64,000 bases of DNA from Alphaproteobacteria bacterium HGW-Alphaproteobacteria-14 (GCA_002842925.1 PHEL01000001.1:6691-70690), one strand, 5' to 3'. Counted from the stretch's first letter, positions 25,096-43,612 are shown. Numbers and translations are program-made. Notes: generated by a model not told the origin, from the sequence alone.

Positions 25096-25554
25096 CTATT
25101 CTCCGATCCCGACAAAGACGGTAATGATCAGTATCGCAACGCCAAATAGGGCGACCGCGAACGGCACGATCAAAATCTGACCATAAACTGCTGTTTTGTC
25201 CATCAGCCCCGTCCAGGTATCGAGCATCTTGCCTTGTTCGAGCGGTGACTTGGCTTCTTGCCCTGCCTGACGAGCGCCAATCCGCGCCACCCCGAAATAG
25301 ACTGCGGTGTAAAGCACGGAAATCACGATAGCGAAACGTGCCGAAACGCTGTCACCCGTCGCCGCGAAAATAGTGGCAAAGAACACCGCATAGCAGGACA
25401 GCATCGCTGCCCAAACGCCGCGCGGCAGTTGGAACCCAGGATTCTGTGGCGCGACAGGCGGTGCGGCCAGGGGCTGAAGTATGCTATCCAGCGGCTGAAG
25501 TTCCGCCTCCAGATCGGCTTCCCGTTCGGCTACAATCGATTGCTGTTCAAACAT
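25096..25554 (-). CDS. Hypothetical membrane protein
   Basis: Overlaps the haemoglobin stop; three hydrophobic segments; LDTWTG motif. Confidence 0.7.
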   Translation of the reverse strand: MFEQQSIVAEREADLEAELQPLDSILQPLAAPPVAPQNPGFQLPRGVWAAMLSCYAVFFATIFAATGDSVSARFAIVISVLYTAVYFGVARIGARQAGQEAKSPLEQGKMLDTWTGLMDKTAVYGQILIVPFAVALFGVAILIITVFVGIGE

Positions 25555-26026
25555 GGGGGAGGTTCCTTCCTGCTTTGGTTCCGGAGATCCCGTCTCGCCG
25601 GATCGTGATCCCTGTAAGGAGACTGTCGGCGATGGCGCGCGCCCGTTCGGCGACAAGCGCAGTGCCTTCCGGCTGCGGTCCGAGCGCGTCTAAAGTTGCG
25701 TAGAAAAGCTCGAGCCAGCGCACGAAATGGGATTCCTCAAGACCAGGGATCGCCATGTGCTTGACCATCGGGTTTCCTGAGAACTCTCCGCTATTGAAGA
25801 GGATGGAGCGCCAAAAGGTTTTCATCCGTTCCAGATGCGGGGGCCAATCAGAGATACGCTCTGCGAAGATGGGAGCGAGCAGTTCATCCTCCCGAATATT
25901 GGCGTAGAAGCGCTCCACCATGAGCGATACGAAACGCTCATCGACACCCAGTGCCACGGCATGTGCGCGTTTCTCTGCCCTTGCCGCGTGTACTTGCTCT
26001 CGTGATTTCTCGGTTGTGGTATGCAT
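25547..26026 (-). CDS. Group III truncated haemoglobin
   Basis: VERFYANIREDELLAPIF, DWPPHLERMKTFWRS, FSGNPMVKH, HFVRWLELF. Confidence 0.92.
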   Translation of the reverse strand: MHTTTEKSREQVHAARAEKRAHAVALGVDERFVSLMVERFYANIREDELLAPIFAERISDWPPHLERMKTFWRSILFNSGEFSGNPMVKHMAIPGLEESHFVRWLELFYATLDALGPQPEGTALVAERARAIADSLLTGITIRRDGISGTKAGRNLPHV

Positions 26027-26041
26027 CTGGAACGCTCTCTT

Positions 26042-26105
26042 AAGAGGTATTTGATATACCTGTTAAAGCGTCTTGGAGAGAAAAGCAATATTTGATATAC
26101 CTGTT
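26042..26105. promoter_or_regulatory. NsrR-type operator, partly duplicated as a 17-bp direct repeat
   Basis: AAGAGGTAT-TTGAT-ATACCTGTT (26042-64); TATTTGATATACCTGTT occurs exactly at 26048 and 26089. Confidence 0.75.
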
Positions 26106-26107
26106 TT

Positions 26108-26542
26108 ATGCAGTTAAACCTTCGAACAGATTATGCCTTGCGAATGCTGATGGCCCTCGCCGCCAAGGATGAGGTGGTGTCGATCGACTGGCTGGCCGAT
26201 CATTATGGCATCTCGCGCAATCATCTTGCCAAGGTTGCGCAAGAGCTGGTCGCGGCAGGCTATGTCGCCTCGCTGCGAGGAAGGGGTGGCGGGCTACGAC
26301 TGGCGCGGCCCCCAGCAGAGATAAACGTGGGCGAGGTGGTCCGGAGATTGGAGAATCTCACGGGCTTCGTGGCTTGCATGGGGGGCAAGGAGAACTGCGC
26401 CATTGACGGTGTCTGCGGCCTAAAACCTGCGCTCGCTGGCGCTATCGACGCCTTTCTGACGCATCTCGATCAATTTGATCTTGCACAGATTACAGCGTCA
26501 AAGTCCCGGCTGCTTCGTCAATTGAATCCGGAAGAGGCCTGA
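26108..26542 (+). CDS. nsrR: Rrf2-family regulator, NsrR-like
   Basis: MQLNLRTDYALRMLM, ISRNHLAKV, RGRGGGLRLAR, three Cys (FVACM, ENCAI, VCGLK). Confidence 0.85.
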   Translation: MQLNLRTDYALRMLMALAAKDEVVSIDWLADHYGISRNHLAKVAQELVAAGYVASLRGRGGGLRLARPPAEINVGEVVRRLENLTGFVACMGGKENCAIDGVCGLKPALAGAIDAFLTHLDQFDLAQITASKSRLLRQLNPEEA

Positions 26543-26618
26543 GCCAAGTATTGCCCGCCTTCCACTCGTTTTCAGCCGTTTGAAACGCCATTTGCGCAGC
26601 CCGAAAGCGGACACCCCG

Positions 26619-26849
26619 CTAAGTTGCCAGTTTGTCGCCTTCCGCAGTTTCAAGCAATTCCGCGGGCTCGATACCTAACTCGACTGCCAGCTTTTCGATC
26701 ACATCCAGCGTTGCGGCATACTGACAGCGCTCAAGGCTGCTGACATAGGTCCGGTCGATCTGTGCGCGATGGGCAAGTTCTTCCTGCGACAGGCCGACCG
26801 CTTTTCGATAGCGGCGCAAATTGGCAGCAAAGGTCTCGCGCAGGGTCAT
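26619..26849 (-). CDS. XRE-family HTH regulator, QseC-like
   Basis: FAANLRRYRKAVGLSQEELAHRAQIDRTYVSSLER; divergent from the qseM-like gene. Confidence 0.85.
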   Translation of the reverse strand: MTLRETFAANLRRYRKAVGLSQEELAHRAQIDRTYVSSLERCQYAATLDVIEKLAVELGIEPAELLETAEGDKLAT

Positions 26850-26870
26850 GCTGGCGAGTGAGCGGGATTG

Positions 26871-26899
26871 CAGAGTATTTAACCACGGAGTATACTCTG
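26871..26899. promoter_or_regulatory. Candidate XRE/QseC operator
   Basis: CAGAGTAT-N13-ATACTCTG, 22 bp upstream of the XRE start codon. Confidence 0.55.
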
Positions 26900-27044
26900 A
26901 ATGAAAGTAGGTATGTGCTAATTTCGCGAAAAGCTTTGAAACTCAGCGGCTTTTGTCGTGCGCCCCGTTAGCCTCAATTGGAATATCGCATTACCTGTTT
27001 GGGGATAAGCGGCATAGCTAAGAGTGGCGAAGGATTTCGTGCTA

Positions 27045-27078
27045 AAAGCAAGCCCGAAAGCAAGCCCGAAAGCAAGCG
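27045..27078. repeat. 12-bp tandem repeat (about 2.8 copies) upstream of the qseM-like gene
   Basis: AAAGCAAGCCCG AAAGCAAGCCCG AAAGCAAGCG. Confidence 0.9.
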
Positions 27079-27097
27079 AGTCGAAACCGAGCTGACC

Positions 27098-27358
27098 ATG
27101 ACTGAGACCCCTGCCTTCCAGGACCTTCCGCCGCTGTCCGAACACGTCACGGACTATGATGAAGCGCATTTCGTCACCTATCTGCGCCTGCTTGATGCCG
27201 CTGCGGAAGGCGCGGATTGGCGCGAAGTTGTCCGACTTGTGTTTGGCCTCGATCCCGCTGACGACCCAGACGCAGCGCGCGCGATGCACGCGGCGCACCT
27301 CGAGCGCGCACGATGGATGGCGCGTAGTGGCTACAGGCAATTGATCGCGAAGGATTAA
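27098..27358 (+). CDS. qseM: Small DUF2285 protein, QseM-like antiactivator
   Basis: VTDYDEAHFVTYLRLLDA..EGADW.E....FGLDP..DP..AR....HLERARWM...GY closely resembles QseM as recalled. Start moved to 27098. Confidence 0.8.
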   Translation: MTETPAFQDLPPLSEHVTDYDEAHFVTYLRLLDAAAEGADWREVVRLVFGLDPADDPDAARAMHAAHLERARWMARSGYRQLIAKD

Positions 27359-27518
27359 TTGCGAGCCAATTTCAACTTTGTGCAATTCTAGGTAATTTCA
27401 CGCGTCTGCTTGTACCGCCGCGAAGAGCAGCAAAGAGAAGATTCGGATACTTCCCGATTCTTCAATTCTCTCAAACGTTTCAGTCTGGCCAAGCTGCCCT
27501 CTACCAAAGGAGGTTGCA

Positions 27519-28305
27519 ATGTCGGGAGAAGGCTCCTGGCGCTCAGCCGATTATGCCGAGCGCTTCGAGACCCATGACCATGCGGATTTCGCGCAGGAAT
27601 TCTTGCGCCGCAACCCCGACTATGCCCGCGAATACACTCAAACAGAGCAACGCGCACTTGCCGCTCTGGCAAACGCACAGGAAGAAAGTGAGGGCCTGGC
27701 TCGGCGATGGGGCCTGAGCTTTCCCCTGCGATCCGAACAAATCCGCGAAGGATGAACCGGCGCATTGGTCGCCCGAGGTGCTGGGGACGACGATCATCCA
27801 GACGGGAGTCGAGCCTGCCAAACGCCTGCTCTCGGACCTTTCCTGGATTGGGGTTCATAGATGTGCTTGTTCGGACGGACTGCACTACGTTCTGACCAGC
27901 ACCTTTGGCCGCTACCGGCTGTGGCAATCGGATCTGGCAGTCGGTCTTTCACGTGCCTTCCTTGTACCAGACGACGCATTCGCCTCCATGCGATCCGAGG
28001 CCCTTTATCGCTTCCAGCTTGCGCGCGCAGGTCGCCGGGCTGCGCTCCAAACCTCCAATATCTCCCCTAGCGAATACCAGCGCCGCAGGCTGGCCAACAT
28101 GCTGGCGATGCTCGACGGGCGCGAAGCCGGTGCCACCATCCGTGAGCTTGCCTTCACGCTCGTCTATCCCAATTCCCGCCTTCTTAGAGGCGCTGAATGG
28201 AAGGCCTCGGGCGAAAAACGCCATGTGCTGCGCCTCCTCAAATCAGCGCTGAATTTGCGCGGCGGCGGCTACCGCGCCTTTCCCGGTTTCGACCGCTCCA
28301 TCTGA
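27519..28305 (+). CDS. fseA: DUF6499-DUF2285 activator (FseA-like), about 261 aa via +1 frameshift; appears as two ORFs, 27519-27755 and 27778-28305
   Basis: ORF1 has W.S...Y...FAQEFLRRNPDY (DUF6499-like); ORF2 has RLANMLAMLDG..AGATIRELA...W (DUF2285-like). The +1 frame is open from the slip site into ORF2. Confidence 0.8.
27705..27725 (+). other. Programmed +1 ribosomal frameshift site
   Basis: CGA.TGG.GGC.CTG.AGC.TTT.CCC fits the msi172-type consensus as recalled, SRV.TGG.GGN.NTN.NNN.TTT.CSY. Confidence 0.8.
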
Positions 28306-28426
28306 TGGGGGGGACAGCTTTGGCCACCTCCCTTTGGTCACTCCCTTCGCCGCGCCACCTTGCTCCATCTCACTCCGCAACCAGCAGCACTGCGCTGCAG
28401 CAACCTGTCTCAAGCGGAGATATTCC

Positions 28427-28699
28427 ATGGACGCCGTTCCCGCCCCGATCCGCCCGCGTTATCTGCGCACCCCCGATGCCGCCGTGCATCTGGGCCTTTC
28501 GCCGCGCACGCTCGAGAAGCATCGCTGCTTTGGCACTGGTCCTGTCTATCGCAAGCTGGGTGGGCGGATCGTCTACCGGCTCGACGATCTCGACAGCTGG
28601 GCCGAACAGGGCCTGCGCCGCTCGACCAGCGATCCGGGCAAGGGCGTGGTCCATCCCGCCAAGCGGATCGACGGCTATTCCGGTCCCGTCCGGCGTTGA
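28427..28699 (+). CDS. rdfS: HTH excisionase / recombination directionality factor, RdfS-like
   Basis: YLRTPDAAVHLGLSPRTLEKHRCFGTGPVYRKLGGRIVYRLDDLDSW; RBS GCGGAG. Confidence 0.8.
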   Translation: MDAVPAPIRPRYLRTPDAAVHLGLSPRTLEKHRCFGTGPVYRKLGGRIVYRLDDLDSWAEQGLRRSTSDPGKGVVHPAKRIDGYSGPVRR

Positions 28700-28710
28700 A
28701 GGTCAGGCCC

Positions 28711-29604
28711 ATGCCCGCCCGCCAGACTTCTGCCCCGTCCCTCTCTAGCGCGGCACAGCAGCTCGATCTGTTCGTCGGGGCCGGAGGCGATATCGCGGCG
28801 CGCGATGCCCAGGACCTGATGGCCTGGCCTTTCTTCAGCCTCGCCAAGTCGAAGCGCGTCAAACCGATCGATTTTCGTATGGGCGAGGTTGCGATCCTCG
28901 TCGAAGCGACCGCCGAACACGGCATGGCGACCATCTGGGATGCCGATGTGCTGATCTGGGTGGCGAGCCAGATCGTCGAGGCGCGCGATGCCGGAAGGCC
29001 GACCTCGCGGCTAATCGCGGCCACCCCGCATGAAATTCTTGCCTTCACCCGGCGCGGGACCGGCAAGGCGGGCTATGACCGGTTGAAAGCGGCGCTCGAC
29101 CGGCTCCAATCGACTACCGTTGCGACCTCGATCCGACAACTTGGCGCACGCCGCCGTCACCGCTTCTCCTGGATCAACGAATGGCGCGAGCGCCTCGATG
29201 CCAATGGCCGCGCGCTCGGTATCGAGATGATTGTGCCCGACTGGTTCTATGAAGGCGTGCTCGACCGGGCGCTCGTGCTCACCATCGACCCGGCCTATTT
29301 CCAGCTGACCGGCGGGCTCGAACGCTGGCTCTACCGCATCGTGCGCAAGCATGGCGGCAGGCAAAAGGGCGGGTGGAGCTTCGATATTGCGCACCTCCAC
29401 CTCAAGTCCGGGGCGCTCTCGCCGCTGAAGCGCTTCGCGTTCGATATGCGCGATATCGTGCGGCGCCAGCCACTGCCGGGCTACACCCTGACCCTCGAGC
29501 ACCAGCTGGGCCGCGAGCGACTGAATTTCGTAGCTCTGCCCGTCGATCCTTTCGATGCCGCCATGCGGCGGATCGGTATGACCCCTGTGGACAAGTCGGT
29601 ATGA
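28711..29604 (+). CDS. repA: Replication initiator protein A (RPA family)
   Basis: QQLDLF, RDAQDLMAWPFFSLAK, GMATIWDADVLIW, RFSWINEW, YFQLTGGLERWLYRIVRKHGG. Start moved to 28711. Confidence 0.9.
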   Translation: MPARQTSAPSLSSAAQQLDLFVGAGGDIAARDAQDLMAWPFFSLAKSKRVKPIDFRMGEVAILVEATAEHGMATIWDADVLIWVASQIVEARDAGRPTSRLIAATPHEILAFTRRGTGKAGYDRLKAALDRLQSTTVATSIRQLGARRRHRFSWINEWRERLDANGRALGIEMIVPDWFYEGVLDRALVLTIDPAYFQLTGGLERWLYRIVRKHGGRQKGGWSFDIAHLHLKSGALSPLKRFAFDMRDIVRRQPLPGYTLTLEHQLGRERLNFVALPVDPFDAAMRRIGMTPVDKSV

Positions 29605-29757
29605 TGTCCGGACTATCAGGAACCCCCGCATTCGGACGATCAGGAACCCGATGTTCGGACTATCGGGAACCGAAATGCCGCGCAAAGCCGCAGAAATGCT
29701 GGGCTGCTGCGCCCCTTAACTATGCTAACAAGGAATCTTCCAGATTCCTGCTAACCT
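29586..29757. repeat. Putative oriV: DnaA-box-like site, three 16-bp iterons, TAAC repeats and a hairpin
   Basis: TGTGGACAA 29586; CGGACTATCAGGAACC 29609, CGGACGATCAGGAACC 29633, CGGACTATCGGGAACC 29656; then TTAAC/CTAAC repeats around AGGAATC/GATTCCT. Confidence 0.75.
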
Positions 29758-29765
29758 CGCAGCGC

Positions 29766-30287
29766 CTGTGCACGGATGGCGCGGCGGAGCCTCCCTCTAC
29801 CAATCAGTGCATTCAGGATGGCAATCCGCCTCTCACCCATGTCACGCTGGTGTGGCAGCAAGGCGTGCGCGAAGACTGGCTGCGTTTTGGCAAGCCGGTT
29901 GCCGAACGCATTCTGGATCGCCGCACCCGCATCGAGAGCTATGCGCCGGGTCAGGTGTTCGCTTTGGTTCGCTGGGCCTCCAATGATTACGGCACCGTTC
30001 GTTCAACGCTCGATATCGTGCGCGCAGTCGCCAGCGGCGAAGACTTCACCACCGTGCCGCAAGTTAACCCTGGCGGCGAAATCCTCCTGTCGGTTCGAGG
30101 CTGGCGGAAGGTTCGCCAGACCTTTGAGCTGATCGACGGCATCGAACAGGCGGGCCACGATCCGTGCGAAGTCGCACCCGATCACTGGCGGCATATGCAC
30201 AACAGGCTGGCAGCGGGTATGAAGCCTCGCTGTTACTCCCCCCGTCGCCACCTTGCTTGGCTGCTTCGCCGGAAACTGCAATCATGA
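29766..30287 (+). CDS. DUF2840 family protein (start codon unclear)
   Basis: LTHVTLVW...DWLRFG...FALVRWASNDYGT...VPQVNPGGEILL...GW.KV...PDHWRHMHNRL. No in-frame ATG near the domain start; CTG at 29766 is a placeholder. Confidence 0.7.
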   Translation: MCTDGAAEPPSTNQCIQDGNPPLTHVTLVWQQGVREDWLRFGKPVAERILDRRTRIESYAPGQVFALVRWASNDYGTVRSTLDIVRAVASGEDFTTVPQVNPGGEILLSVRGWRKVRQTFELIDGIEQAGHDPCEVAPDHWRHMHNRLAAGMKPRCYSPRRHLAWLLRRKLQS

Positions 30288-30970
30288 AGCGGCGAACGAT
30301 CCTTCTGGCAGCCACAGTTGCGGCGGCGGCACTGCTGAGCGCGGCTCTGCCCATGTCGCGCATTCTTCTCTGGAATGCGACCGCCAGCGTGCCGACCGGG
30401 CTCTACCATATTCGCGGGACAGCGAGCCTCCATGTCGGCGAGCGGGTGGCCATCGATCCGCCGCCCGGGCTCCGCACCTATCTCGCTGAGCGCGGCTATC
30501 TTCCCTCCGGCGTGCCGCTGCTGAAGGAGGTCGCGGCGCTGCGCGGCGACATCGTTTGCCGCCATGACCTCGTCATCACGATCAATGGCAAACCGGCAGG
30601 CGAGGCGCGTGTGCTCGACAGCCAGGCGCGCCCACTACCCGACTGGCAGGGCTGCCAAATTATCGGCGCTGATGAAATCTTCGTGATGAGCAGGAGCGCG
30701 CCCGGCAGCTTCGACGGGCGCTACTTTGGGCCGATTGTGCGCGCGCAGGTGATCGGACGCGCAAACCCTGTCTGGACCGACGAAGCGGGCAACGGCGTGC
30801 ATGTCTGGTTCGCCCGTCAGCATTTGATCCCAATCGCCAACACCAACTCTAACAACACCAAGGAGACCAAACATGACATGTATCGGCACATTCACCGCGC
30901 GCCCCGATGGCTTCGAAGGCCGCCTACAAACGCTAACGATCGACAGCGCCTTGACCATTGTCCCTGCTGA
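30284..30970 (+). CDS. traF: S26-family peptidase / TraF
   Basis: WNATASVPTGLY, LLKEVAALRGDIVCR, SFDGRYFGP. The C-terminal tail overlaps the next gene by 98 bp. Confidence 0.88.
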   Translation: MKRRTILLAATVAAAALLSAALPMSRILLWNATASVPTGLYHIRGTASLHVGERVAIDPPPGLRTYLAERGYLPSGVPLLKEVAALRGDIVCRHDLVITINGKPAGEARVLDSQARPLPDWQGCQIIGADEIFVMSRSAPGSFDGRYFGPIVRAQVIGRANPVWTDEAGNGVHVWFARQHLIPIANTNSNNTKETKHDMYRHIHRAPRWLRRPPTNANDRQRLDHCPC

Positions 30971-31205
30971 GCCGGGCGAAGCCGAAAACACACCGGACTT
31001 CCGTATCATGGCTGGCGAGGGCGATACCGCCTTCGAAGTCGGAGCAGGCTGGATGCGCGTCGGCGACAAGGCGGGTGCCTATGTCGCGGTCCTGATCGAC
31101 GATCCGGCGCTCATGCAACCGCTGCGCGCGAATCTGTTCCAGTCGGACCCGCGCACCCATGTGCTGATGTGGTCACGCCCCTCACGCCGCGAAGCGAAGG
31201 ACTAA
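30873..31205 (+). CDS. DUF736 family protein (copy 2)
   Basis: MTCIGTF...PDFRI...EVGAGW...YVAVLIDDP...LRANLF...LMWSR; RBS AAGGAG. Confidence 0.88.
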   Translation: MTCIGTFTARPDGFEGRLQTLTIDSALTIVPAEPGEAENTPDFRIMAGEGDTAFEVGAGWMRVGDKAGAYVAVLIDDPALMQPLRANLFQSDPRTHVLMWSRPSRREAKD

Positions 31206-31208
31206 GCG

Positions 31209-31889
31209 ATGCGCGACCATCGACTGGTCTCTGCGGCCTTGGCTGCACTGGCCTGCGCCTACCCGGCTCCCATTCATGCGCAGACAGGTTCAACCGGTTC
31301 GCAAGCACAGCGCATCGATATCGACGTCCATGTGCGCGAAGCTGCACAGCGCTTCGGTATTCCTGAGCACTGGATCTATGCGGTAATCCGCATCGAAAGC
31401 GCGGGCCGGACGCGCGCCGTGTCATCCGCCGGGGCCATGGGTCTGATGCAACTGATGCCCGGAACCTGGGCGCGCCAGCGCGACCGGTTTGCGCTCGGCA
31501 GCGATCCCTTCGATCCGCGTGACAACATCATGGCAGGAACATCTTACCTGCGGGAAATGTATGACCGCTATGGCGCACCGGGTTTCCTTGCGGCCTATAA
31601 TGCTGGACCGGGACGGTATGAGGCATGGCGTGCAGGACGGCGTTCGCTCCCGCTCGAAACGCGTCGGTATGTCGCCAAGATTGTGCCCATGCTGCAGGCG
31701 GAACGCATTTTCGTTGCAGCGACCCAGCCACCGATGAGCGAAGCATTGCCCGCATTTACTGCGCAAACGGCTACACCATTAATCCCAGCAGAAGCCAACG
31801 AACAGCAAGCTCCGACCAATCCGTTCGCGCGTGCCGATCAGCCTTCGCACGACCTCTTCGCACCTGTCTCCACAGTCAGCGATCAATGA
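31209..31889 (+). CDS. Lytic transglycosylase (SLT)
   Basis: AVIRIESAG, SSAGAMGLMQLMPGTW, LAAYNAGPGR, LPLETRRY. Confidence 0.92.
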   Translation: MRDHRLVSAALAALACAYPAPIHAQTGSTGSQAQRIDIDVHVREAAQRFGIPEHWIYAVIRIESAGRTRAVSSAGAMGLMQLMPGTWARQRDRFALGSDPFDPRDNIMAGTSYLREMYDRYGAPGFLAAYNAGPGRYEAWRAGRRSLPLETRRYVAKIVPMLQAERIFVAATQPPMSEALPAFTAQTATPLIPAEANEQQAPTNPFARADQPSHDLFAPVSTVSDQ

Positions 31890-32129
31890 TGCCCGCAATC
31901 ATGCTCTCGCGCCCGGCTTCGTCCTTTGGCGAAGCTTGGGGATGTATGGTGGGAAGCGTCAGAAAGGGGAAAGGAGGATGGCGAGATAAAAGCACCGCCG
32001 TCGGCCGGGATGCAGGTGGTTGGTTTTATTGGGCAATATGCGCCGTCTTGGCATATGCCCTGCCGTCGCTTCTGGCGAATTCTCTCACAATTTCAACGGC
32101 CGATGCGCCGTCGCCAGGCTTCCTCCCCC
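31890..32129. other. Candidate oriT region
   Basis: Non-coding gap between the SLT gene and the relaxase, the usual oriT position in this ICE type; no nick site confidently identified. Confidence 0.4.
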
Positions 32130-33869
32130 ATGGCTGATGACGACTTCGACATCAGACCGGGCCGCTCGCGGGACAGCGGTGTTGGCGCCTACCGCAAGGC
32201 CAACACGCTGGTCGGCCGCGTGCTCCAGGTCTCGCGCCGGGCAGGCTACACGCCGCTTGGGCGAAGCAGGTCCGGCCGCGGCACCGGCCATCTCGGGCGC
32301 GGCAAGCGCGCTGCGCTGCAGCGCCGTCGCACTGCCTTCCAGCGGCGCGTCGTCATCAAGGCCCGCGTTGTCCGGCATAGGGGTACATCGTTTCGTTCCG
32401 CACCGCTCGCACGCCATATCGCCTATCTCGAACGTGACGGTGTTACCCGTGATGGATCGGACGGCCAGATGTTCGATGCCCGCTCTGACCAGGCCGATGG
32501 GGAGACCTTTGCCGAGCGCTGCGAGGAAGACCGGCACCACTTCCGCTTCATCGTCTCGCCTGAGGATGCCAGCGAGATGGCGGATCTGCGGGCTTTCACG
32601 CGCGAGATGATGGACGACATGGCGAGCGATCTGGACACGAAGCTCGATTGGGTCGCAGTCGATCACTGGAACACCGACAATCCGCATATCCATGTGCTGG
32701 TCCGGGGCGTTGCGAGCGATGGAAAGGATCTCGTGATCGACCGCGCCTATATCAGCGAGGGCCTGCGTGCCCGCGCCGAAGAGCGCGTGACGGTGGAACT
32801 CGGCCCGCGCAGCGAGCGTGATATTCAAAACGCGCTTCGGCGAGAGGTCGACGCCGAACGCTGGACTTCGCTCGACCGCCGATTGCAACGGCAGCGTGAC
32901 GATCTTGGTGTGGTCGACCTGCGCCCCGAGGCATCAGGCGCACGAAAGGATCGCAGCCTACTGCTTGGCCGTGCACAGACACTCGAACGCATGGGTCTAG
33001 CCCAGCGCATTGGTCCAGCCAGTTGGACGCTGGCTGCGGATGTCGAGCCGACCTTGCGCGAACTGGGTGATCGCGGCGACATCATCAAGACTATGCACCG
33101 CGCCATGACCGGCCACGGTCTGACCATCGATCCCGAGCGCATCGCCTTGCATGGACGAACCGGTGGCGCGCGTGTCATTGGCAGGCTCGTCGAACGCGGG
33201 TTGCATGATGAACTGACCGGCGAGGCCTATACGATCATCGATGGGGTGGATGGCCGCACACATCATCTGCGTTTTCCCGACATCGATCGGACGACTGACG
33301 CTGCGCCGGGCGCGATCGTCGAGGCCAGCAACTGGACCGATCGCAAAGGTCGGCAGCAGACAAGTCTGCTGGTCCGGTCCGACCTTTCCATCGACACGCA
33401 AGTCCGTGCGCGCGGTGCGACATGGCTCGACCGGCAGCTGTTATCGCCGCGACCCGAAACACTCTCGGGCGGGTTTGGGTCAGACGTTCGCGACGCACTG
33501 GAGCAACGGTCGGAGGGCTTGATCGATGACGGCCTCGCCAAACGTCGGGGGCAGCGCATCGTCTTTGCGCGCGGCCTGCTCGATACGCTCCGAGACCGTG
33601 AACTGGCTGACGCAGGCGAGGCCTTAGCGGCGCGCCACGGTGGTATCGCTCAGTCCGTCAATGCCGGCGACCATGTAGCTGGTATCTACCGCGAGCGGGT
33701 GACGCTCGCGTCTGGCCGCTTCGCCATGATTGACAATGGCATGGGCTTCCAGCTCGTCCCCTGGCGGCAGGATCTTGAACGGCATCTGGGGCAGGCCGTG
33801 ACCGGCAGGATCAACCAGCGCGGCGGCGCCGACTGGAGCTTTGCCCGCTCGCGCGGCCCAGCAATCTGA
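32130..33869 (+). CDS. rlxS: Relaxase, RlxS/VirD2-like with DUF3363
   Basis: RRVVIKARVVRH, HIAYLERDGVTRDG, HHFRFIVSPEDA, AVDHWNTDNPHIHVLVRG, GATWLDRQL. Start moved to 32130. Confidence 0.92.
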   Translation: MADDDFDIRPGRSRDSGVGAYRKANTLVGRVLQVSRRAGYTPLGRSRSGRGTGHLGRGKRAALQRRRTAFQRRVVIKARVVRHRGTSFRSAPLARHIAYLERDGVTRDGSDGQMFDARSDQADGETFAERCEEDRHHFRFIVSPEDASEMADLRAFTREMMDDMASDLDTKLDWVAVDHWNTDNPHIHVLVRGVASDGKDLVIDRAYISEGLRARAEERVTVELGPRSERDIQNALRREVDAERWTSLDRRLQRQRDDLGVVDLRPEASGARKDRSLLLGRAQTLERMGLAQRIGPASWTLAADVEPTLRELGDRGDIIKTMHRAMTGHGLTIDPERIALHGRTGGARVIGRLVERGLHDELTGEAYTIIDGVDGRTHHLRFPDIDRTTDAAPGAIVEASNWTDRKGRQQTSLLVRSDLSIDTQVRARGATWLDRQLLSPRPETLSGGFGSDVRDALEQRSEGLIDDGLAKRRGQRIVFARGLLDTLRDRELADAGEALAARHGGIAQSVNAGDHVAGIYRERVTLASGRFAMIDNGMGFQLVPWRQDLERHLGQAVTGRINQRGGADWSFARSRGPAI

Positions 33870-33893
33870 GGAGGTAGGCCAATGACACAAATC

Positions 33894-33930
33894 TTGACAA
33901 AAGCACCACATGATGCTTATAAACGCATCA
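33894..33930 (+). promoter_or_regulatory. Sigma70-like promoter with overlapping operator for the TA operon
   Basis: TTGACA 33894, TATAAA 33918 (18-bp spacer), inverted repeat TGATGC-N8-GCATCA at 33911-33930. Confidence 0.75.
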
Positions 33931-33941
33931 GGAGAAGCGAT

Positions 33942-34373
33942 ATGGCGAGTGCAGTTTTTGAACCAGTCGAAGCCCCGCGCGGACTTCAAACCTTTGCGGG
34001 CGATGATGATCGCCGCCGCCTGACCGGCGCGGCGGTGAAAGCCGTGCTTCGTCTTGTCGAAGCCTGGGGTGGCAGCAACGCCGAAGGTGCGGCGCTGCTC
34101 GGTGTGTCCGAAAGCACTTGGGACCGGATGAAGGCCGGGACCTGGGAAGGCATACTCAGTCAGGACCAGCTGACCCGCGCTTCGGCGCTGATTGGCCTGT
34201 TCAAGGGACTGCACCTGCTCTTCGCCGACGACATGGCCGATCGCTGGCCAAAGCTTGCAAACAAGGCGCCCGTGTTCGACCGGCTCTCGCCCGTGCAGGC
34301 GATGATCGATGGTGGCATTCCGCGCATGTTAGAGACCCGGCAGTATATCGACGCGCTTCGTGGCGGGCTTTGA
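33942..34373 (+). CDS. Xre/MbcA/ParS-family antitoxin (DUF2384)
   Basis: HTH AALLGVSESTWDRMK, LSQDQLTRASALIG, N.APVFDRLSPVQAMI.GG; RBS AGGAGA. Confidence 0.88.
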   Translation: MASAVFEPVEAPRGLQTFAGDDDRRRLTGAAVKAVLRLVEAWGGSNAEGAALLGVSESTWDRMKAGTWEGILSQDQLTRASALIGLFKGLHLLFADDMADRWPKLANKAPVFDRLSPVQAMIDGGIPRMLETRQYIDALRGGL

Positions 34374-35076
34374 GGGAGGGGCCGACCTGTCACTGGCCAG
34401 CCTTCCGACAATCCGCGAGGCCTTCGAGCAGACGATCAGGCTCGTGCCGAGCGCGCGTCTGCGCGAAGCGGTCATGTCGGCTCTTGCTGACGATGACGAC
34501 GATCTTGCCTTGTTGGCTGAGATCGAGGGCGCGACGAGCGGGAGGCTGATTGCTGAAGAACGCGGGCTTGGCGGGCTGACCGCCGATGAGCTGGTTCACG
34601 GCGTGCCGCATGCCAAATTCATCAATGCCAGCTTCGCCTATGCCAAGCCGCGTGAGCCGGGTCGCTTCAATCCCGCCGATCGCGGTGCCTGGTATGCCGC
34701 GCTAGTGGTCGAGACCTGTATCGCCGAGGTCGGCCATCACCTGACCAAAGCCTTGGCCGACGCGGGCGATTTCAACGCAATTGTTGAATATGGCGAGATG
34801 ATCGCCAGCATGTCGGGCGTGTTCATCGATCTGCGCGGCCTTCCCGATCATCCCAGCCTCGATCCCGATGCTGCGAAGGGTTATCCGGCAGGCAATGCTC
34901 TGGCGGCGCAAGCGCGCGGCGAAGGGCACAATGGGATCATCTACCCCTCAGTTCGGCATCGAGATGGCACCTGTATAGCGGCGCTTTGGCCTAATGTTGT
35001 GCAGTCGGTCGTGCAGGGCGCGATGTATCGGCTGACGTGGTCAGGATCGCCAAAGTATGGGTGGGAAGCGCTTTAG
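34360..35076 (+). CDS. RES-domain toxin (start uncertain)
   Basis: GRFNPADRGAWYAA, TCIAEVGHH, GIIYPSVRH; coupled to the Xre antitoxin. Confidence 0.88.
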   Translation: MAGFEGGADLSLASLPTIREAFEQTIRLVPSARLREAVMSALADDDDDLALLAEIEGATSGRLIAEERGLGGLTADELVHGVPHAKFINASFAYAKPREPGRFNPADRGAWYAALVVETCIAEVGHHLTKALADAGDFNAIVEYGEMIASMSGVFIDLRGLPDHPSLDPDAAKGYPAGNALAAQARGEGHNGIIYPSVRHRDGTCIAALWPNVVQSVVQGAMYRLTWSGSPKYGWEAL

Positions 35077-35091
35077 GATCGCAACGCGCTT

Positions 35092-36240
35092 TCAATATTT
35101 CTCGTGATGAGGATTCTCGTTAGGAAAGGCATCGACATAACCAAAATTTACATCGATCCTCTTCTTCGAGACCTCCACTTCGTGGAAAACGACGCCATCG
35201 TCCAGGGATCTATCGGCTGTAATCGTAAGCGTAAAAGGGAGCGTATCTTCAATGTAAGTTTCTTCCGAACCAAGGTGAACGTAGTCTCGATCGACACTAT
35301 CTTCCACGAAGAAATTGAAGGATGCTTCGAAGCCAACACATGCCTCAAGGCCCACTGTAAAGGTCACCGTATCACTGTCGACTGCGATAACCGTTGGCTG
35401 ACCGATGCTTTGTGGATTTACAAACTGAAGTACAGCGCCGAGCGGCTCCGCTTCAAATTCCACATCAGCATGCCCGTCGACACTGAAATCCAGATCATCG
35501 AGGCGATATTCGAACGCGTTTGAAATCGCTTCGATAAACTCACCACCTTCGCTTTCCCGCCAACGCTGCACAATGACGTCAGCGAGGTTTTGGTCGGCAG
35601 CATTGAAAAGTGCGAGGGCGTGTTCCAGCCTGTCCACGCAGACGAGATGATCCGACTTGGCGGCGAATTCCACCCAGCCCTTGTCAGGGGCAACGCAGAG
35701 TACAAAACCTTTGTTTTCTTCGCCGAATGTCTCCAGTCGCAAAAGTGCAAATGCGTCCGGAAATTCGCTCTTCCGCTTGTCAGCAGGTCCAAAAGGAGGC
35801 GCTTCCGAAAAGTACCGGGTCAGGATATTTTCGACAGCATCTGGCACGTCAGAGGACTTAATGACTTGGCCATTGACGTGTTTGAGAAATGCGTCGAATT
35901 CTAATTGGGCGAAGGCCGCTGGATCCGCCTGAAGCAACAAATCTTCATCTTCTTTGTCAGCTCTTTCCCGGTTCCAGCGAAGCGTGTGCGAGCGCAGAGC
36001 CTTTTTGAGTGCTCTTTGTGGCTCCGAAGCATCATCGCGCAAATGCGCAACTATCTCTCTGGCGACCACATCCGAGAAGACGACACGAACATCGCGTTCA
36101 TAAAACTGATCTAGGCGCTGTAACACCGTATTGCTGAAAGTCTTCTGCTTTGCGTCAAACACCGAAGTGTCGATCGAGATCGCAAACACCTTCCCGTCGG
36201 CGATTGCTTTTTTCAGTTCATCATCAGTCAGAGTTGGCAT
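35092..36240 (-). CDS. PIN-domain protein (PIN_8/DUF4935-like) with acidic C-terminal domain
   Basis: ISIDTSVF, VVAREIVAHL, KRKSEFPDAF, APDKGW acidic tetrad; visibly more AT-rich than its flanks. Confidence 0.75.
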   Translation of the reverse strand: MPTLTDDELKKAIADGKVFAISIDTSVFDAKQKTFSNTVLQRLDQFYERDVRVVFSDVVAREIVAHLRDDASEPQRALKKALRSHTLRWNRERADKEDEDLLLQADPAAFAQLEFDAFLKHVNGQVIKSSDVPDAVENILTRYFSEAPPFGPADKRKSEFPDAFALLRLETFGEENKGFVLCVAPDKGWVEFAAKSDHLVCVDRLEHALALFNAADQNLADVIVQRWRESEGGEFIEAISNAFEYRLDDLDFSVDGHADVEFEAEPLGAVLQFVNPQSIGQPTVIAVDSDTVTFTVGLEACVGFEASFNFFVEDSVDRDYVHLGSEETYIEDTLPFTLTITADRSLDDGVVFHEVEVSKKRIDVNFGYVDAFPNENPHHEKY

Positions 36241-36424
36241 ACGCAACCTTACGCTAAGGACCTGAATAATGCATCATCTTCAAAATCTTTGACCCCTGCA
36301 AGGTCAACAAGAATTTGTAGGCTAACCACGCTGGCATCACTTTCTCTTCGCTAGAACACTATCATTACCCATCGGCCTTGCAATCCTCATTCAGGCGTTT
36401 CGACTTACCTCTAAAGGAGGTGCT

Positions 36425-38410
36425 ATGTCGGCAACCAAAATCCTGTGGGGCCAAATACTCGCCGTCTTCTCCCTGACGTTGGCAGGCATCTGGGCAGGCA
36501 CACAATGGACGGCAGCCGCCCTCGGCTACCAGACTGGCCTAGGCACAGCCTGGTTCGAGGCCTTCGGTGTGCCCGTCTATCCGCCCTATGCCATCTTCTG
36601 GTGGTGGTTCAGCTTTGAAGCCTATGCGCCGCGCATCTTCGAAACTGGCGGCATGATCGCGGCATCGGGCGGTCTTGCTTCGGTAGTGGTGGCGATCGCC
36701 ATGTCGGTCTGGCGCGCCCGCGAGATCAGGAACAGCGCTACCTATGGCTCGGCGCGCTGGGCCACCCGATCCGAAATCGCCAAGGCAGGCCTGCTTACAG
36801 GCAAGGGCGTCGTCATCGGCCAGCACGCCAATCTCTATTTGCGCCATGACGGTCCCGAACATGTTCTGTGCTTTGCGCCAACCCGCAGCGGCAAGGGCGT
36901 AGGGCTGGTCATCCCGACACTGCTGACTTGGCCGCACTCTGCAATTGTCCACGACATCAAGGGCGAGAACTGGGACCTGACTGCCGGCTTCCGTTCGAAC
37001 TTCAGCCGCTTGCTGTTGTTCGATCCGACCAACGAGGCTTCGGCGGCCTATAACCCGCTGATGGAGGTGCGGCGCGGGATCAATGAGGTCCGCGACGTCC
37101 AGAATATCGCCGATGTGCTGGTCGATCCCGAAGGCTCGCTCGAGCGCCGCAACCATTGGGAAAAGACCAGCCATGCCCTGCTGGTCGGGGCCATCCTGCA
37201 CGTGCTCTATGCGGAAAGCGACAAGACCCTAGCAGGCGTCGCAGCCTTCCTCTCCGATCCCAAGCGATCGATCGAGGCGACACTCGCCGCCATGATGATG
37301 ACCCCGCATCTGGGCGATGATGGCATGCATCCAGTCGTTGCGAGCGCAGCCCGCGAACTCCTCAACAAGTCTGAAAACGAACGCTCGGGCGTGCTGTCTA
37401 CCGCTATGTCCTTCCTTGGACTCTACCGCGATCCGGTCATCGCGAAAGTCACAAGGCAATGCGACTGGCGCATTGCCGATTTGGTCGATGCCAAACGTCC
37501 GGTCACGCTCTACCTCGTTGTCCCACCATCGGATATCAGCCGGACCAAGCCGCTCATCCGTCTGATCCTCAACCAGCTCGGGCGGCGGCTGACCGAAGAC
37601 CTTGCCGAAGGCGCGGACCGGCAGCGGCTGCTCCTGATGCTTGACGAGTTCCCGGCGCTTGGCCGCCTTGACTTCTTCGAGAGCGCGCTTGCCTTCATGG
37701 CCGGATACGGCATCAAGGCCTTTCTGATCGCGCAGTCATTGAACCAGATCGAAAAAGCTTACGGCCAGAACAACGCGATCCTCGACAATTGCCATGTGCG
37801 GGTCTGCTTCGCGACCAATGACGAACGCACCGCCAAGCGCGTCTCGGAATCGCTCGGTACCGCCACTGAAATGCGGGCGATGAAGAACTATGCCGGACAT
37901 CGGCTGTCGCCATGGCTTGGTCATCTGATGGTCTCGCGCTCCGAGACCGCGCGGGCTCTGCTGACCCAGGGCGAGATCATGCAACTGCCTGATACCGATC
38001 AAATCGTCATGCTAGCTGGCGCCCATCCTATCCGTTCGAAGAAGGCTCGCTACTATGCCGATCCGCGGCTCAAAAAGCGGATCGATGCGCCACCGATCCC
38101 GAAGCAGTCAGTCGACAAGGGAGCTGCCGGTGATTGGGGAGGCAGGATTGCGAAAGCTGTGCATCGGAAGGACAGCCCTGTCAGCAAGCCCGAGTGGCGG
38201 GATGATGAGGCCGAGGGCGGAATTCGGCGTGAACCAGAATTGCCTGAGCACGAAGACATCGCACCAGCACCTGTACCCGTGCGCAATGAATTTGATTTTG
38301 AGGACAGGAGCGATGCTGACATCGCGAGCACCAATCGCGGATTGGCCGACCAGATGCGCGCCAACGCCCGGCGCGCTGCGCTCGATCCCAATGACGGGAT
38401 CGAACTGTGA
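36425..38410 (+). CDS. traG: Type IV coupling protein TraG/VirD4
   Basis: HVLCFAPTRSGKGVGLVIP, VHDIKGENW, LLMLDEFPALG, QSLNQ; RBS AAGGAGG. Confidence 0.96.
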   Translation: MSATKILWGQILAVFSLTLAGIWAGTQWTAAALGYQTGLGTAWFEAFGVPVYPPYAIFWWWFSFEAYAPRIFETGGMIAASGGLASVVVAIAMSVWRAREIRNSATYGSARWATRSEIAKAGLLTGKGVVIGQHANLYLRHDGPEHVLCFAPTRSGKGVGLVIPTLLTWPHSAIVHDIKGENWDLTAGFRSNFSRLLLFDPTNEASAAYNPLMEVRRGINEVRDVQNIADVLVDPEGSLERRNHWEKTSHALLVGAILHVLYAESDKTLAGVAAFLSDPKRSIEATLAAMMMTPHLGDDGMHPVVASAARELLNKSENERSGVLSTAMSFLGLYRDPVIAKVTRQCDWRIADLVDAKRPVTLYLVVPPSDISRTKPLIRLILNQLGRRLTEDLAEGADRQRLLLMLDEFPALGRLDFFESALAFMAGYGIKAFLIAQSLNQIEKAYGQNNAILDNCHVRVCFATNDERTAKRVSESLGTATEMRAMKNYAGHRLSPWLGHLMVSRSETARALLTQGEIMQLPDTDQIVMLAGAHPIRSKKARYYADPRLKKRIDAPPIPKQSVDKGAAGDWGGRIAKAVHRKDSPVSKPEWRDDEAEGGIRREPELPEHEDIAPAPVPVRNEFDFEDRSDADIASTNRGLADQMRANARRAALDPNDGIEL

Positions 38411-43041: not shown

Positions 43042-43081
43042 CTACATCAAATCTGACCCGCTACGAGGAAAGGAGTTTCGA

Positions 43082-43396: not shown

Positions 43397-43612
43397 CGAC
43401 TTCAGAAGGTTCCCACAGACTTGAGCGGGATAGTGATGGAATTTCACATTTGAGCGACTGACCGCTTTCCGCCTCTAGCCAACCGCAACCCGCCGTTCAG
43501 CAACCGGCCTAAATGCTGACCTCGCAGACGATCTGATTTCGTGGAAGCACGATGATGTTTTAGACGTACGGTGCGGGAATATCCGAAACTGGCTAGGAAA
43601 ATAACTCGACAC

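What the first reader, a model, noticed from the sequence alone, without database searches (positions are those of the whole stretch)
27519..28305. Hidden master activator made by a +1 programmed ribosomal frameshift
Seen: ORF1 (DUF6499-like) reads ...CGA.TGG.GGC.CTG.AGC.TTT.CCC (RWGLSFP). Slipping UUU to UUC at 27720-23 enters a stop-free +1 frame (PCDPNKSAKDEPAHWSPEVLGTT...) continuous with the DUF2285-like ORF, giving about 261 aa. Known: this matches the msi172-msi171/FseA frameshift of ICEMlSym, where low-efficiency shifting limits activation of the rdfS promoter; an rdfS-like gene follows directly here. The mechanism is described in rhizobia, but annotation would show two hypotheticals or a pseudogene, and its occurrence on a metal/defence ICE of a sphingomonad-like host is notable.
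Basis: partly seen in the sequence, partly recalled or inferred. Interest (0 to 1): 0.72.

Follow-up and report, generated by a model that had tools for sequence, protein, structure and literature searches.

The report
FseA-type frameshifted ICE transfer activator
This is a real, well-conserved gene for a transfer activator of a mobile element, whose full-length protein can only be made if the ribosome slips forward one base; the trick is already documented in thousands of related genes, so this is an ordinary new example.

Summary
ORF1 (27519-27755, DUF6499) and a +1-frame ORF (open from 27718, stop 28303-28305, DUF2285) overlap by 38 nt. A +1 slip at UUU_C (27720-27723) gives a 261-aa protein.

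Three things show it is a functional gene and not a broken one:
- Nine related sphingomonad loci keep the identical site.
- Each half is under purifying selection in its own frame.
- The trans-frame junction (RRWGLSFPCDP...PAHW) aligns without gaps to 71 single-ORF homologues and to RovC (PDB 6XZ5).

Five distant plasmid lineages carry the same UGGGGN-YUN-NNN-UUUC cassette. Around the gene lie homologues of the other circuit parts:
- QseM antiactivator (PDB 7UQT, E 6e-19)
- a divergent Cro/CI-type regulator
- RdfS (PDB 8DGL, E 1e-11)
- the repA, DUF2840, traF, SLT and relaxase genes downstream

It is not novel. Published work reports the conserved +1 site in about 61% of 4709 FseA homologues across proteobacteria. 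Both split and fused forms are common in Sphingomonadales, so the host is not notable.

Not shown here: actual frameshifting and its efficiency, the FseA operator (the R7A-type box is absent) and what transcribes fseA. Interest is low.

The parts
26619..26849 (-). QseC-like Cro/CI-type HTH regulator (76 aa), divergent from the qseM-like gene
   Evidence: PF01381 HTH_3, E 9.8e-14. Conserved in relatives. An HTH_3 gene has the same position and orientation next to the fused homologue P0007. The assignment as QseC rests on position and fold class only.
27098..27358 (+). QseM-like antiactivator (86 aa, DUF2285 only, acidic)
   Evidence: PDB 7UQT (QseM), E 5.8e-19 over 79 residues. PF10074, E 4.6e-8. 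pI 4.9, charge -7. The start ATG 27098 was taken from the alignment with relatives.
27359..27518 (+). Conserved AT-rich spacer between qseM and fseA. It contains a palindrome (AATTG-N5-CAATT) and an imperfect inverted repeat (GTGCAAT-N8-ATTTCAC). It is a candidate fseA promoter or operator. AGGAGG lies 5 nt before ATG 27519.
   Evidence: Near-invariant in 9 loci. No + strand terminator was predicted. The function is inferred, not tested.
27519..27755 (+). fseA ORF1 (0 frame, msi172-like): DUF6499 domain with the FAQEFLRRN motif. The unshifted product is 78 aa.
   Evidence: PF20109, E 3.8e-20. dN/dS 0.19-0.63 in frame 0.
27708..27713 (+). UGGGGC: G-rich, Shine-Dalgarno-like codons of the invariant Trp-Gly, 6 nt upstream of the slip codon
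   Evidence: Read directly from the sequence. UGGGGN sits at the same distance in 5 distant lineages. The published interpretation as an RBS-like stalling element is in PMC10359603.
27720..27726 (+). +1 slip site UUU_C (27720-27723), followed here by CCC_C (27723-27726)
   Evidence: Invariant in 9 relatives. UUUC is conserved at the position WGLxF in Sphingopyxis, Blastomonas, Mesorhizobium, Sinorhizobium and Sphingobium plasmids. The fused relative has TAC CCC TGC at this point.
27718..27755 (+). 38-nt window in which both frames are open. The shift must occur here.
   Evidence: After the slip site, variable positions fall on the +1-frame wobble position (6 of 10, against 2 of 11 and 3 of 11).
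27724..28305 (+). fseA +1-frame part (msi171-like): junction motif, middle domain and C-terminal DUF2285 DNA-binding domain
   Evidence: PF10074, E 7.9e-23. dN/dS 0.18-0.36 in the +1 frame, against 1.7-4.6 if read in frame 0. The DUF2285 part has pI 11.1.
28311..28341 (+). Candidate FseA operator: GGGAC-N21-GTCAC. Relatives have GTGAC-N21-GTCAC and the fused homologue locus has GCGAC-N21-GTCGC.
   Evidence: Inferred only. It differs in sequence and spacing from the R7A box GGCGAA-N16-TTCGCC.
28427..28699 (+). rdfS-like recombination directionality factor (90 aa, wHTH)
   Evidence: PF12728 HTH_17, E 5.8e-9. PDB 8DGL (RdfS) is the only hit, E 9.9e-12. The protein is almost invariant in 9 relatives.
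28711..33869 (+). Downstream transfer genes on the same strand: replication initiator protein A (28711-29604), DUF2840 (within 29373-30287), S26 peptidase TraF (within 30164-30970), SLT transglycosylase (31209-31889) and a relaxase with DUF3363 (31926-33869)
   Evidence: Pfam hits. The order rdfS...traF-SLT-relaxase matches the R7A rdfS-traF-msi107-rlxS operon described in PMC11963761.

Best explanation
The locus 27519-28305 is one gene, an fseA homologue. It encodes a two-domain transcriptional activator (DUF6499 plus DUF2285) of an integrative conjugative element.

Most ribosomes read ORF1 to the TGA at 27753 and release a 78-aa DUF6499-only peptide. In a minority of translation events, peptidyl-tRNA-Phe in the P site re-pairs from UUU (27720-27722) to UUC (27721-27723). 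The upstream UGGGGC, which resembles a Shine-Dalgarno sequence, probably helps. Translation then continues in the +1 frame to give the 261-aa activator.

By analogy with ICEMlSymR7A, the full-length protein dimerises and binds upstream of the adjacent rdfS-like gene. It switches on rdfS and the downstream repA, DUF2840, traF, SLT and relaxase genes, which starts excision and transfer. The acidic QseM homologue encoded just upstream would hold it in check by binding its DUF6499 helix.

Shown here:
- the gene architecture
- conservation of the slip site
- selection on each half in its own frame
- colinearity of the trans-frame product with single-ORF homologues
- the identities of the QseM and RdfS homologues

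Inferred:
- that shifting occurs, and at what rate
- the exact slipping tRNA
- the operator
- the regulatory outcome
For: - Domains and frames.
- The identical cassette CGATGGGGCCTGAGCTTTCCCCTGCGATCC and the same 38-nt overlap occur in 9 loci of 79-90% nucleotide identity, from Erythrobacter, Pontixanthobacter, Stakelama, Parasphingorhabdus and other genomes.
- The wobble periodicity switches at the slip site. Variable sites by frame-0 codon position are 12, 11 and 23 in ORF1, against 110, 53 and 39 in ORF2.
- dN/dS is below 1 for each half only in its own frame.
- About 54 nt of conserved +1-frame coding sequence (PCDPNKSAKDEPAHWSPE) lies upstream of the first possible +1-frame start, GTG 27778. 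That GTG has GAGG directly abutting it, so there is no usable spacing.
- 71 single-ORF homologues of 240-270 aa with both domains align without gaps across the junction, following the pattern RWGL-x3-DP-x7-PA-x-W.
- The closest fused locus has the same synteny. It reads TAC CCC TGC GAT CCG where the window reads TTT C CCC TGC GAT CCG.
- The fused sequence gives an AlphaFold model with pLDDT 90 and pTM 0.89. The pLDDT is 95 over residues 61-90, which include the junction.
- The family profile hits RovC (6XZ5), E 3.8e-15. Its first matched stretch runs through the junction motif.
- Five distant plasmid lineages (29-37% amino-acid identity) carry UGGGGN-YUN-NNN-UUUC followed by the F[PA]xDP...W motif in the +1 frame.
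- Circuit partners: QseM (7UQT) and RdfS (8DGL).
- Literature: the UUUC slip, 4-13% efficiency and a junction product detected in R7A (PMC4755241); the conserved site in about 61% of 4709 homologues (PMC10359603).
Against: - There is no protein or reporter evidence for this locus, and no RNA-seq run holds it.
- No known stimulator apart from the G-rich stretch is evident. The 0-frame A-site codon CCC is not rare (26% of Pro codons). There is no stop codon at the site. In-frame TTT_C occurs 35 times in 20 other genes of the window, so the tetranucleotide alone cannot explain programmed shifting.
- UGGGG also encodes the invariant Trp-Gly of the fused homologues, so its conservation does not prove a role in frameshifting.
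- An R7A-type FseA box (GGCGAA-N16-TTCGCC) is not present upstream of rdfS. Only the TTCGCC half is there, at 28346-28351, and it is not conserved in relatives.
- Foldseek of the model against the PDB found nothing significant.
Confidence: 0.88

Rival explanations
1. The mechanism is the same, but the slipping tRNA is tRNA-Pro on CCC_C (27723-27726) rather than tRNA-Phe on UUU_C. The product would be identical.
For: The window and its 9 relatives all have UUU CCC C. CCC_N is a classical +1-prone site (established knowledge on tRNA-Pro frameshifting).
Against: Distant split homologues keep UUUC but not CCCC. They read UUU CCC G, UUU CGC C and UUU CCC U. The published R7A site is assigned to tRNA-Phe moving from UUU to UUC.
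Confidence: 0.08
2. This is a split activator. ORF1 (DUF6499) and ORF2 (DUF2285, initiated at GTG 27778) are made as two separate proteins that assemble non-covalently, with no frameshift needed.
For: Gene callers and PGAP annotate two CDS. In the published model, the DUF6499 helix docks on DUF2285.
Against: - The +1 frame is conserved as coding sequence for 54 nt upstream of the GTG, with no start codon in that stretch.
- The GTG has no properly spaced ribosome-binding site.
- Annotated ORF2 starts in other lineages are scattered about 70 to 200 nt or more downstream of the slip site.
- The junction motif is continuous in fused homologues and in RovC.
- In R7A the unfused pair gives only 0.8% of the activity of the fused gene.
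Confidence: 0.04
3. This is a pseudogene. A single-base insertion inactivated a formerly fused fseA gene.
For: Single-ORF homologues exist. One decayed copy, L010, shows that the family does decay.
Against: The identical offset is kept across 9 diverged loci, with dN/dS of 0.18-0.63 in both halves. The same site recurs in distant lineages. The flanking qseM and rdfS genes are intact and conserved.
Confidence: 0.02
4. Transcriptional slippage by RNA polymerase on the T3 or C4 run adds or removes a base in the mRNA, rather than the ribosome shifting.
For: Short homopolymer runs lie at the site.
Against: The runs are only 3-4 nt long, whereas known slippage sites need about 7 or more A or T (established knowledge). 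The C run is not conserved in other lineages. No RNA data were available to test this directly.
Confidence: 0.02

Closest known systems
FseA (msi172-msi171) of ICEMlSymR7A, Mesorhizobium japonicum R7A
   Same: - The two-ORF layout, with DUF6499 followed by DUF2285 in the +1 frame.
- The UUUC slip site after the WGL codons (UGGGGN).
- A QseM-type DUF2285 antiactivator and a Cro/CI-type regulator in the same element.
- An RdfS homologue followed by traF, an SLT gene and a relaxase as the likely target operon.
   Different: - Only about 30% amino-acid identity to rhizobial homologues.
- The alpha-2 motif reads FAQEFLRRN instead of AWEFLRRN.
- All parts are contiguous here (qseC, qseM, fseA, rdfS), whereas in R7A fseA follows traI2 under TraR control and rdfS lies elsewhere.
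- No quorum-sensing genes were seen next to it.
- qseM is co-directional with fseA instead of convergent.
- The R7A FseA box GGCGAA-N16-TTCGCC is absent.
- The RdfS homologue seems to lack the ICESym-specific N-terminal helix. The alignment starts at RdfS residue 18 and only 10 residues precede it here.
- repA and DUF2840 are inserted between rdfS and traF.
Single-ORF FseA homologues of Sphingomonadales (e.g. P0007, Sphingomonas and Novosphingobium proteins)
   Same: The same domains, junction motif and length (240-270 aa). Where checked, the same synteny: HTH_3(-), an 86-aa DUF2285 gene, the FseA gene and a 90-aa HTH_17 gene.
   Different: No frameshift is needed. The slip codon is replaced (TAC in P0007) and there is one base fewer. 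Identity to the window protein is only 23-38%.
RovC of Yersinia (PDB 6XZ5), activator of a type VI secretion system
   Same: DUF6499-like N-terminus, the WG...DP...W junction motif and a C-terminal DUF2285 domain, all in one chain. The profile hit has E 3.8e-15.
   Different: RovC is a single ORF, it regulates T6SS rather than ICE transfer, and it is only distantly related.
prfB (RF2) +1 programmed frameshift
   Same: A +1 P-site slip in which the tRNA gains a better third-position pair (CUU_U there, UUU_C here), with an upstream Shine-Dalgarno-like G-rich element.
   Different: Here there is no stop codon in the A site; the 0-frame stop is 11 codons downstream. The SD-like element is 6 nt upstream rather than 3. 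There is no autoregulatory logic through release-factor level.

Membership tests
FseA family with +1 PRF (msi172-msi171 type) | N-terminal DUF6499 domain with an AWEFLRRN-like alpha-2 motif | tested here: met
   PF20109, E 3.8e-20. The motif is FAQEFLRRN at residues 24-32. E27, F28, L29, R30, R31 and N32 are invariant or nearly so in 72 sequences. Trp is replaced by Gln, as in other sphingomonad homologues.
FseA family with +1 PRF (msi172-msi171 type) | C-terminal DUF2285 extended-turn HTH domain with a basic surface | tested here: met
   PF10074, E 7.9e-23. Residues 180-261 have pI 11.1 and charge +8. The surface itself was not mapped.
FseA family with +1 PRF (msi172-msi171 type) | The two domains are encoded in overlapping ORFs offset by +1 | tested here: met
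   38-nt overlap at 27718-27755.
FseA family with +1 PRF (msi172-msi171 type) | Conserved slip cassette: WGL codons (UGGGGN) followed by slippery UUUC | tested here: met
   UGG GGC CUG AGC UUU C at 27708-27723. The same pattern occurs in 9 relatives and in 5 distant lineages.
FseA family with +1 PRF (msi172-msi171 type) | The trans-frame product is colinear with single-ORF family members | tested here: met
   Gap-free junction alignment with 71 fused homologues and with RovC. The model has pLDDT 90.
FseA family with +1 PRF (msi172-msi171 type) | A frameshifted full-length protein is actually produced at low frequency | not testable with these tools
   This needs a reporter assay or mass spectrometry. 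No RNA or protein data exist for this locus.
FseA family with +1 PRF (msi172-msi171 type) | Binds an inverted-repeat FseA box (R7A: GGCGAA-N16-TTCGCC) next to the rdfS promoter | tested here: inconclusive
   The R7A-type box was not found. Only TTCGCC is present, at 28346-28351, and it is variable in relatives. A different inverted repeat (GTGAC-N21-GTCAC in relatives, GCGAC-N21-GTCGC next to the fused homologue, GGGAC...GTCAC in the window) is a candidate.
FseA/QseM/RdfS excision-control circuit of ICEMlSymR7A | QseM antiactivator: a short acidic DUF2285-only protein | tested here: met
   PDB 7UQT, E 5.8e-19. 86 aa, pI 4.9. The LLD and RxxW motifs are retained in the alignment.
FseA/QseM/RdfS excision-control circuit of ICEMlSymR7A | RdfS wHTH recombination directionality factor as the target gene | tested here: met
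   PDB 8DGL is the only hit, E 9.9e-12. HTH_17, E 5.8e-9. The gene lies 121 nt downstream of the fseA stop.
FseA/QseM/RdfS excision-control circuit of ICEMlSymR7A | [quoted passage not shown] | not tested
   No LuxR or LuxI gene was seen among the ORFs annotated, but the window was not searched exhaustively. fseA is preceded by qseM, not by a traI gene.
prfB-type +1 PRF | In-frame stop codon in the A site at the shift site, and an SD-like element about 3 nt upstream | tested here: not met
   The A-site codon is the sense codon CCC. The 0-frame stop is 11 codons downstream. The G-rich element ends 6 nt upstream.

The most novel reading that the evidence does not exclude
In this module, which appears to lack quorum sensing, the antiactivator gene qseM and fseA lie head-to-tail. 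They are separated by 160 conserved nucleotides with no predicted terminator. If they are co-transcribed, the frameshift rate alone would set the ratio of activator to antiactivator. The abundant unshifted 78-aa DUF6499 peptide could also titrate QseM. The ribosomal slip, and whatever changes its rate (for example translational stress or tRNA supply), would then be the actual decision point for ICE transfer, and not merely a passive damper downstream of quorum sensing.
Probability: 0.1. Interest if true: 0.5.

Novelty: new member of a known kind. Interest (0 to 1): 0.15.

Why it matters
The practical value is in annotation. The two 'hypothetical' ORFs should be merged into one frameshifted fseA gene. 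The neighbouring small genes can be named as the QseM-like antiactivator, the QseC-like regulator and the RdfS-like excisionase. That identifies the transfer switch of an ICE carrying metal-resistance and defence cargo in marine and groundwater sphingomonads.

The locus adds no new mechanism. The same +1 site is already reported for thousands of FseA homologues. The compact layout (qseC, qseM, fseA, rdfS) without adjacent quorum-sensing genes would be a convenient minimal system for studying how frameshifting and antiactivation together set transfer frequency.

Tried and rejected
1. Off-by-one error of mine. I first gave the rdfS-like ORF as 28428-28696; the ATG is at 27427+1000, that is 28427. 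These results were therefore run on a wrong-frame translation and are void: protein 3, protein 1, the structure job and the homologue search. This cost one protein search and one structure job. The correct frame gave HTH_17 and RdfS 8DGL.
2. Foldseek of the confident fused model against the PDB gave no match with E below 0.36 and did not retrieve RovC or QseM. The sequence profile did retrieve RovC.
3. A single-sequence phmmer search of the fused protein against the PDB gave only noise.
4. I searched for the R7A-type FseA box (GGCGAA-N16-TTCGCC, sequence taken from the supplement). It was not found.
5. I looked for a 'hungry' A-site codon. CCC makes up 26% of Pro codons and CGC (in other lineages) 49% of Arg codons, so neither is rare.
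6. I considered an upstream hairpin (GCUCGG...CCUGAGC) ending at the slip codon. I rejected it because L005 breaks it (CTTTGC) and distant lineages lack it.
7. I considered the +1-frame TGA at 27715-27717 as a functional part of the cassette. I rejected it because it is absent in L005 and in most distant lineages.
8. L010 at first looked like a naturally fused allele (TTTCCCTGC). It is a decayed copy with several other frame breaks, and its rdfS is broken too.
9. The megablast search of the plasmid collection with 26500-29700 matched only the repA part.
10. The RNA-seq search found no usable run.

Full report
**Observation.**
- ORF1 starts at ATG 27519, 5 nt after AGGAGG. It reads ...CGA TGG GGC CTG AGC TTT CCC... 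and stops at TGA 27753-27755, giving 78 aa.
- The +1 frame is closed by TGA 27715-27717. It is then open from 27718 to the stop at 28303-28305.
- Reading 27519-27722 and then 27724-28302 gives 261 aa, with the junction ...RRWGLSF|PCDPNKSAKDEPAHWSPEVLGTT...
- Pfam places PF20109 (the former DUF6499) on ORF1, E 3.8e-20. It places PF10074 (the former DUF2285, now named RovC_DNA-bd) on the +1 ORF, E 7.9e-23.
- Because the site reads U UUC CCC U, a slip of tRNA-Pro on CCC_C would give the same peptide as a slip of tRNA-Phe on UUU_C.

**Is the frame offset real and maintained?** A scan of one genome per species returned ten loci.
- Nine of them come from Erythrobacter, Pontixanthobacter, Stakelama, Parasphingorhabdus, a Sphingomonadaceae MAG and one MAG labelled Rhodobacterales. 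They are 79-90% identical in nucleotides.
- All nine keep the same two-frame layout and the invariant string CGATGGGGCCTGAGCTTTCCCCTGCGATCC. One locus has CTTTGC in place of CTGAGC.
- Contigs of four independent metagenome runs show no indel at the site.
- Variable positions fall mostly on frame-0 codon position 3 in ORF1 (12, 11 and 23 for positions 1, 2 and 3). In ORF2 they fall on frame-0 position 1, which is the +1-frame wobble position (110, 53 and 39). The few variable sites in the overlap after the slip codon already follow the +1 pattern (6, 2 and 3).
- Pairwise dN/dS is 0.19-0.63 for ORF1 in frame 0. It is 0.18-0.36 for ORF2 in frame +1, but 1.7-4.6 if ORF2 is read in frame 0.

Both halves are therefore functional coding sequence in different frames, which excludes a pseudogene. 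The tenth locus (L010) has one C fewer (TTTCCCTGC), which fuses the frames. It is broken in several other places, as is its rdfS, so it is a decayed copy.

**Is the product one protein?** Four points argue that it is.
1. About 54 nt of conserved +1-frame coding sequence precede the first possible +1-frame start, GTG 27778. That GTG has GAGG directly abutting it, which leaves no spacing for a ribosome-binding site.
2. Database proteins from close relatives are 175-aa ORF2-only calls beginning MLGTT at that GTG. More distant relatives of 240-270 aa carry both Pfam domains in a single ORF. Of the 120 proteins listed, 81 have both domains, 37 have DUF2285 only and 2 have DUF6499 only.
3. In an alignment with 71 single-ORF homologues, the trans-frame junction aligns without gaps to the family motif RWGL-x3-DP-x7-PA-x-W. 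The closest fused homologue (P0007) reads GAT TGG GGT CTG GCC TAC CCC TGC GAT CCG where the window reads CGA TGG GGC CTG AGC TTT C CCC TGC GAT CCG. It sits in the same gene order.
4. With that alignment, AlphaFold2 models the fused sequence as one compact unit (pLDDT 90, pTM 0.89), with pLDDT 95 over residues 61-90, which include the junction. A profile of the alignment hits the crystal structure of RovC (6XZ5), E 3.8e-15. Its first matched stretch runs through the junction motif, and a second stretch covers the C-terminal domain. Foldseek against the PDB found nothing significant, so this structural link rests on sequence.

**Is the site the known one?** The published msi172-msi171 site of ICEMlSymR7A has these features:
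- a slippery UUUC on which tRNA-Phe moves from UUU to UUC, with a conserved upstream G-rich region and 4-13% efficiency (PMC4755241);
- the adjacent, highly conserved WGL encoded by the RBS-like UGGGGG (PMC10359603).

The window has UGG GGC CUG AGC UUU C. A tblastn search of the plasmid collection found 35 records. Nearly all matched as two pieces in two frames, annotated as separate DUF6499 and DUF2285 CDS. Five of them were inspected: Sphingopyxis indica pMC4, Blastomonas pBSY18_2, M. japonicum pMLb, Sinorhizobium medicae pMl2 and Sphingobium indicum pCHQ1. All have UGGGGN-YUN-NNN-UUUC, followed in the +1 frame by F[PA]xDP...W. What follows UUUC varies (CCC G, CGC C, CCC U). The shared element is therefore UUU_C and not the C run, which favours the Phe slip and argues against polymerase slippage on a homopolymer.

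**Surroundings.**
- Divergent from it is a 76-aa Cro/CI-type HTH gene (26619-26849), the position QseC holds relative to qseM.
- Downstream, 121 nt after the fseA stop, the 90-aa ORF 28427-28699 matches HTH_17. Its only PDB hit is RdfS (8DGL), E 9.9e-12.
- Then come replication initiator protein A, DUF2840, an S26 TraF-type peptidase, an SLT transglycosylase and a DUF3363 relaxase. This order matches the R7A rdfS-traF-msi107-rlxS operon that FseA activates (PMC11963761).
- Further on are TraG and Trb-type T4SS genes, interspersed with defence cargo: RES-Xre, PIN, McrBC and an MmeI-like enzyme.
- To the left is metal-resistance cargo: an RND pump, a multicopper oxidase and a P-type ATPase.
- A tRNA-Gly at 62256-62330 probably marks one end of the element. 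Relatives lie in contigs of 1-2.3 Mb, so the element is integrated.

**What is not established.**
- The R7A FseA box is GGCGAA-N16-TTCGCC (supplement of PMC10359603). Upstream of rdfS the window has only a TTCGCC, at 28346-28351, and this is variable in relatives. No matching left half is present.
- A different inverted repeat sits just after the fseA stop. It reads GTGAC-N21-GTCAC in most relatives and GCGAC-N21-GTCGC beside the fused homologue, a compensatory pair of changes. In the window it reads GGGAC...GTCAC, with one mismatch. It is a candidate operator only.
- What transcribes fseA is unknown. It follows qseM on the same strand after 160 near-invariant nucleotides containing two small inverted repeats. 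No + strand terminator is predicted, and no LuxR or LuxI gene was noticed.
- No stimulator of shifting beyond the G-rich stretch is evident. CCC is a common codon, and in-frame TTT_C occurs 35 times in 20 other genes of the window.
- The efficiency and the junction peptide cannot be obtained with these tools, and no RNA run holds the locus.

**Comparison and novelty.** The locus meets every sequence-level criterion of the FseA +1 PRF family. The functional criteria (actual shifting, operator binding, quorum-sensing input) are untested or inconclusive. Jowsey et al. (PMC10359603) curated 4709 unique FseA homologues across alpha-, beta- and gamma-proteobacteria. Split and fused versions are both common in Sphingomonadales, so the host is not remarkable. 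This is a new member of a known kind.

The local differences are modest:
- a compact qseC, qseM, fseA, rdfS arrangement without adjacent quorum-sensing genes;
- FAQEFLRRN instead of AWEFLRRN;
- an RdfS without the ICESym-specific N-terminal helix;
- a probable operator of different sequence and spacing.

**Error log.** I first mis-set the rdfS-like ORF by one base (28428 instead of 28427). The results (protein 3), (protein 1), and one search are void for that reason. Searches use the correct frame.

Noticed in passing
window 27045-27080: The 12-nt unit AAAGCAAGCCCG occurs three times in tandem in the leader of the qseM-like gene. All relatives that cover the region have two copies. The effect on qseM expression is unknown.
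   Followed up: no
window 27355-27402: A near-invariant AT-rich stretch lies between qseM and fseA. It has the palindrome AATTG-N5-CAATT over the qseM stop and the imperfect inverted repeat GTGCAAT-N8-ATTTCAC. It is a candidate promoter or operator for fseA with no known binding protein.
   Followed up: partly
L010 about 3130-3260 (Sphingomonadaceae MAG HK-STAS-PROT-79): A decayed copy of the module. The slip site has lost one C (TTTCCCTGC), so the frames are fused there. fseA and rdfS are both interrupted elsewhere.
   Followed up: yes
window 27790-28000, compared with L006-L009: The middle domain of FseA comes in two clearly different allelic types among otherwise close relatives. In L007, dS is 0.07 in ORF1 but 0.67 in ORF2. 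This suggests recombination with a breakpoint near the frameshift region.
   Followed up: partly
window 27690-27735 (run X6, record 6): A divergent metagenome contig matches the window only over these 46 nt and diverges on both sides. The frameshift cassette therefore seems to be the most conserved nucleotide stretch of the gene, even between distant alleles.
   Followed up: no
window 62256-62330 (-): tRNA-Gly(GCC) lies just beyond the T4SS genes and a LysR regulator (61114-62022, -). It is the probable integration site and right-hand end of the ICE. No integrase was found in the window, so the other end probably lies beyond it.
   Followed up: partly
window 33882-51403: A defence and addiction island is inserted among the transfer genes. 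It comprises a Xre-RES toxin-antitoxin pair, a PIN_12 protein, an AAA ATPase with an S8 subtilase, McrBC with an AAA_5 partner, and an MmeI-like type IIL restriction-modification enzyme.
   Followed up: no
window 25547-26542: An Rrf2-family regulator (26108-26542) lies divergent from a 159-aa ORF with no Pfam hit (25547-26026). This looks like cargo immediately left of the qseC-like gene.
   Followed up: no
L015 3279-3306 (Sphingobium indicum UT26S pCHQ1): A perfect inverted repeat TGTCGA-N16-TCGACA lies between the split fseA and the rdfS-like gene. It has the same overall length as the R7A FseA box. The DUF6499 ORF of this plasmid is not annotated in the record.
   Followed up: partly
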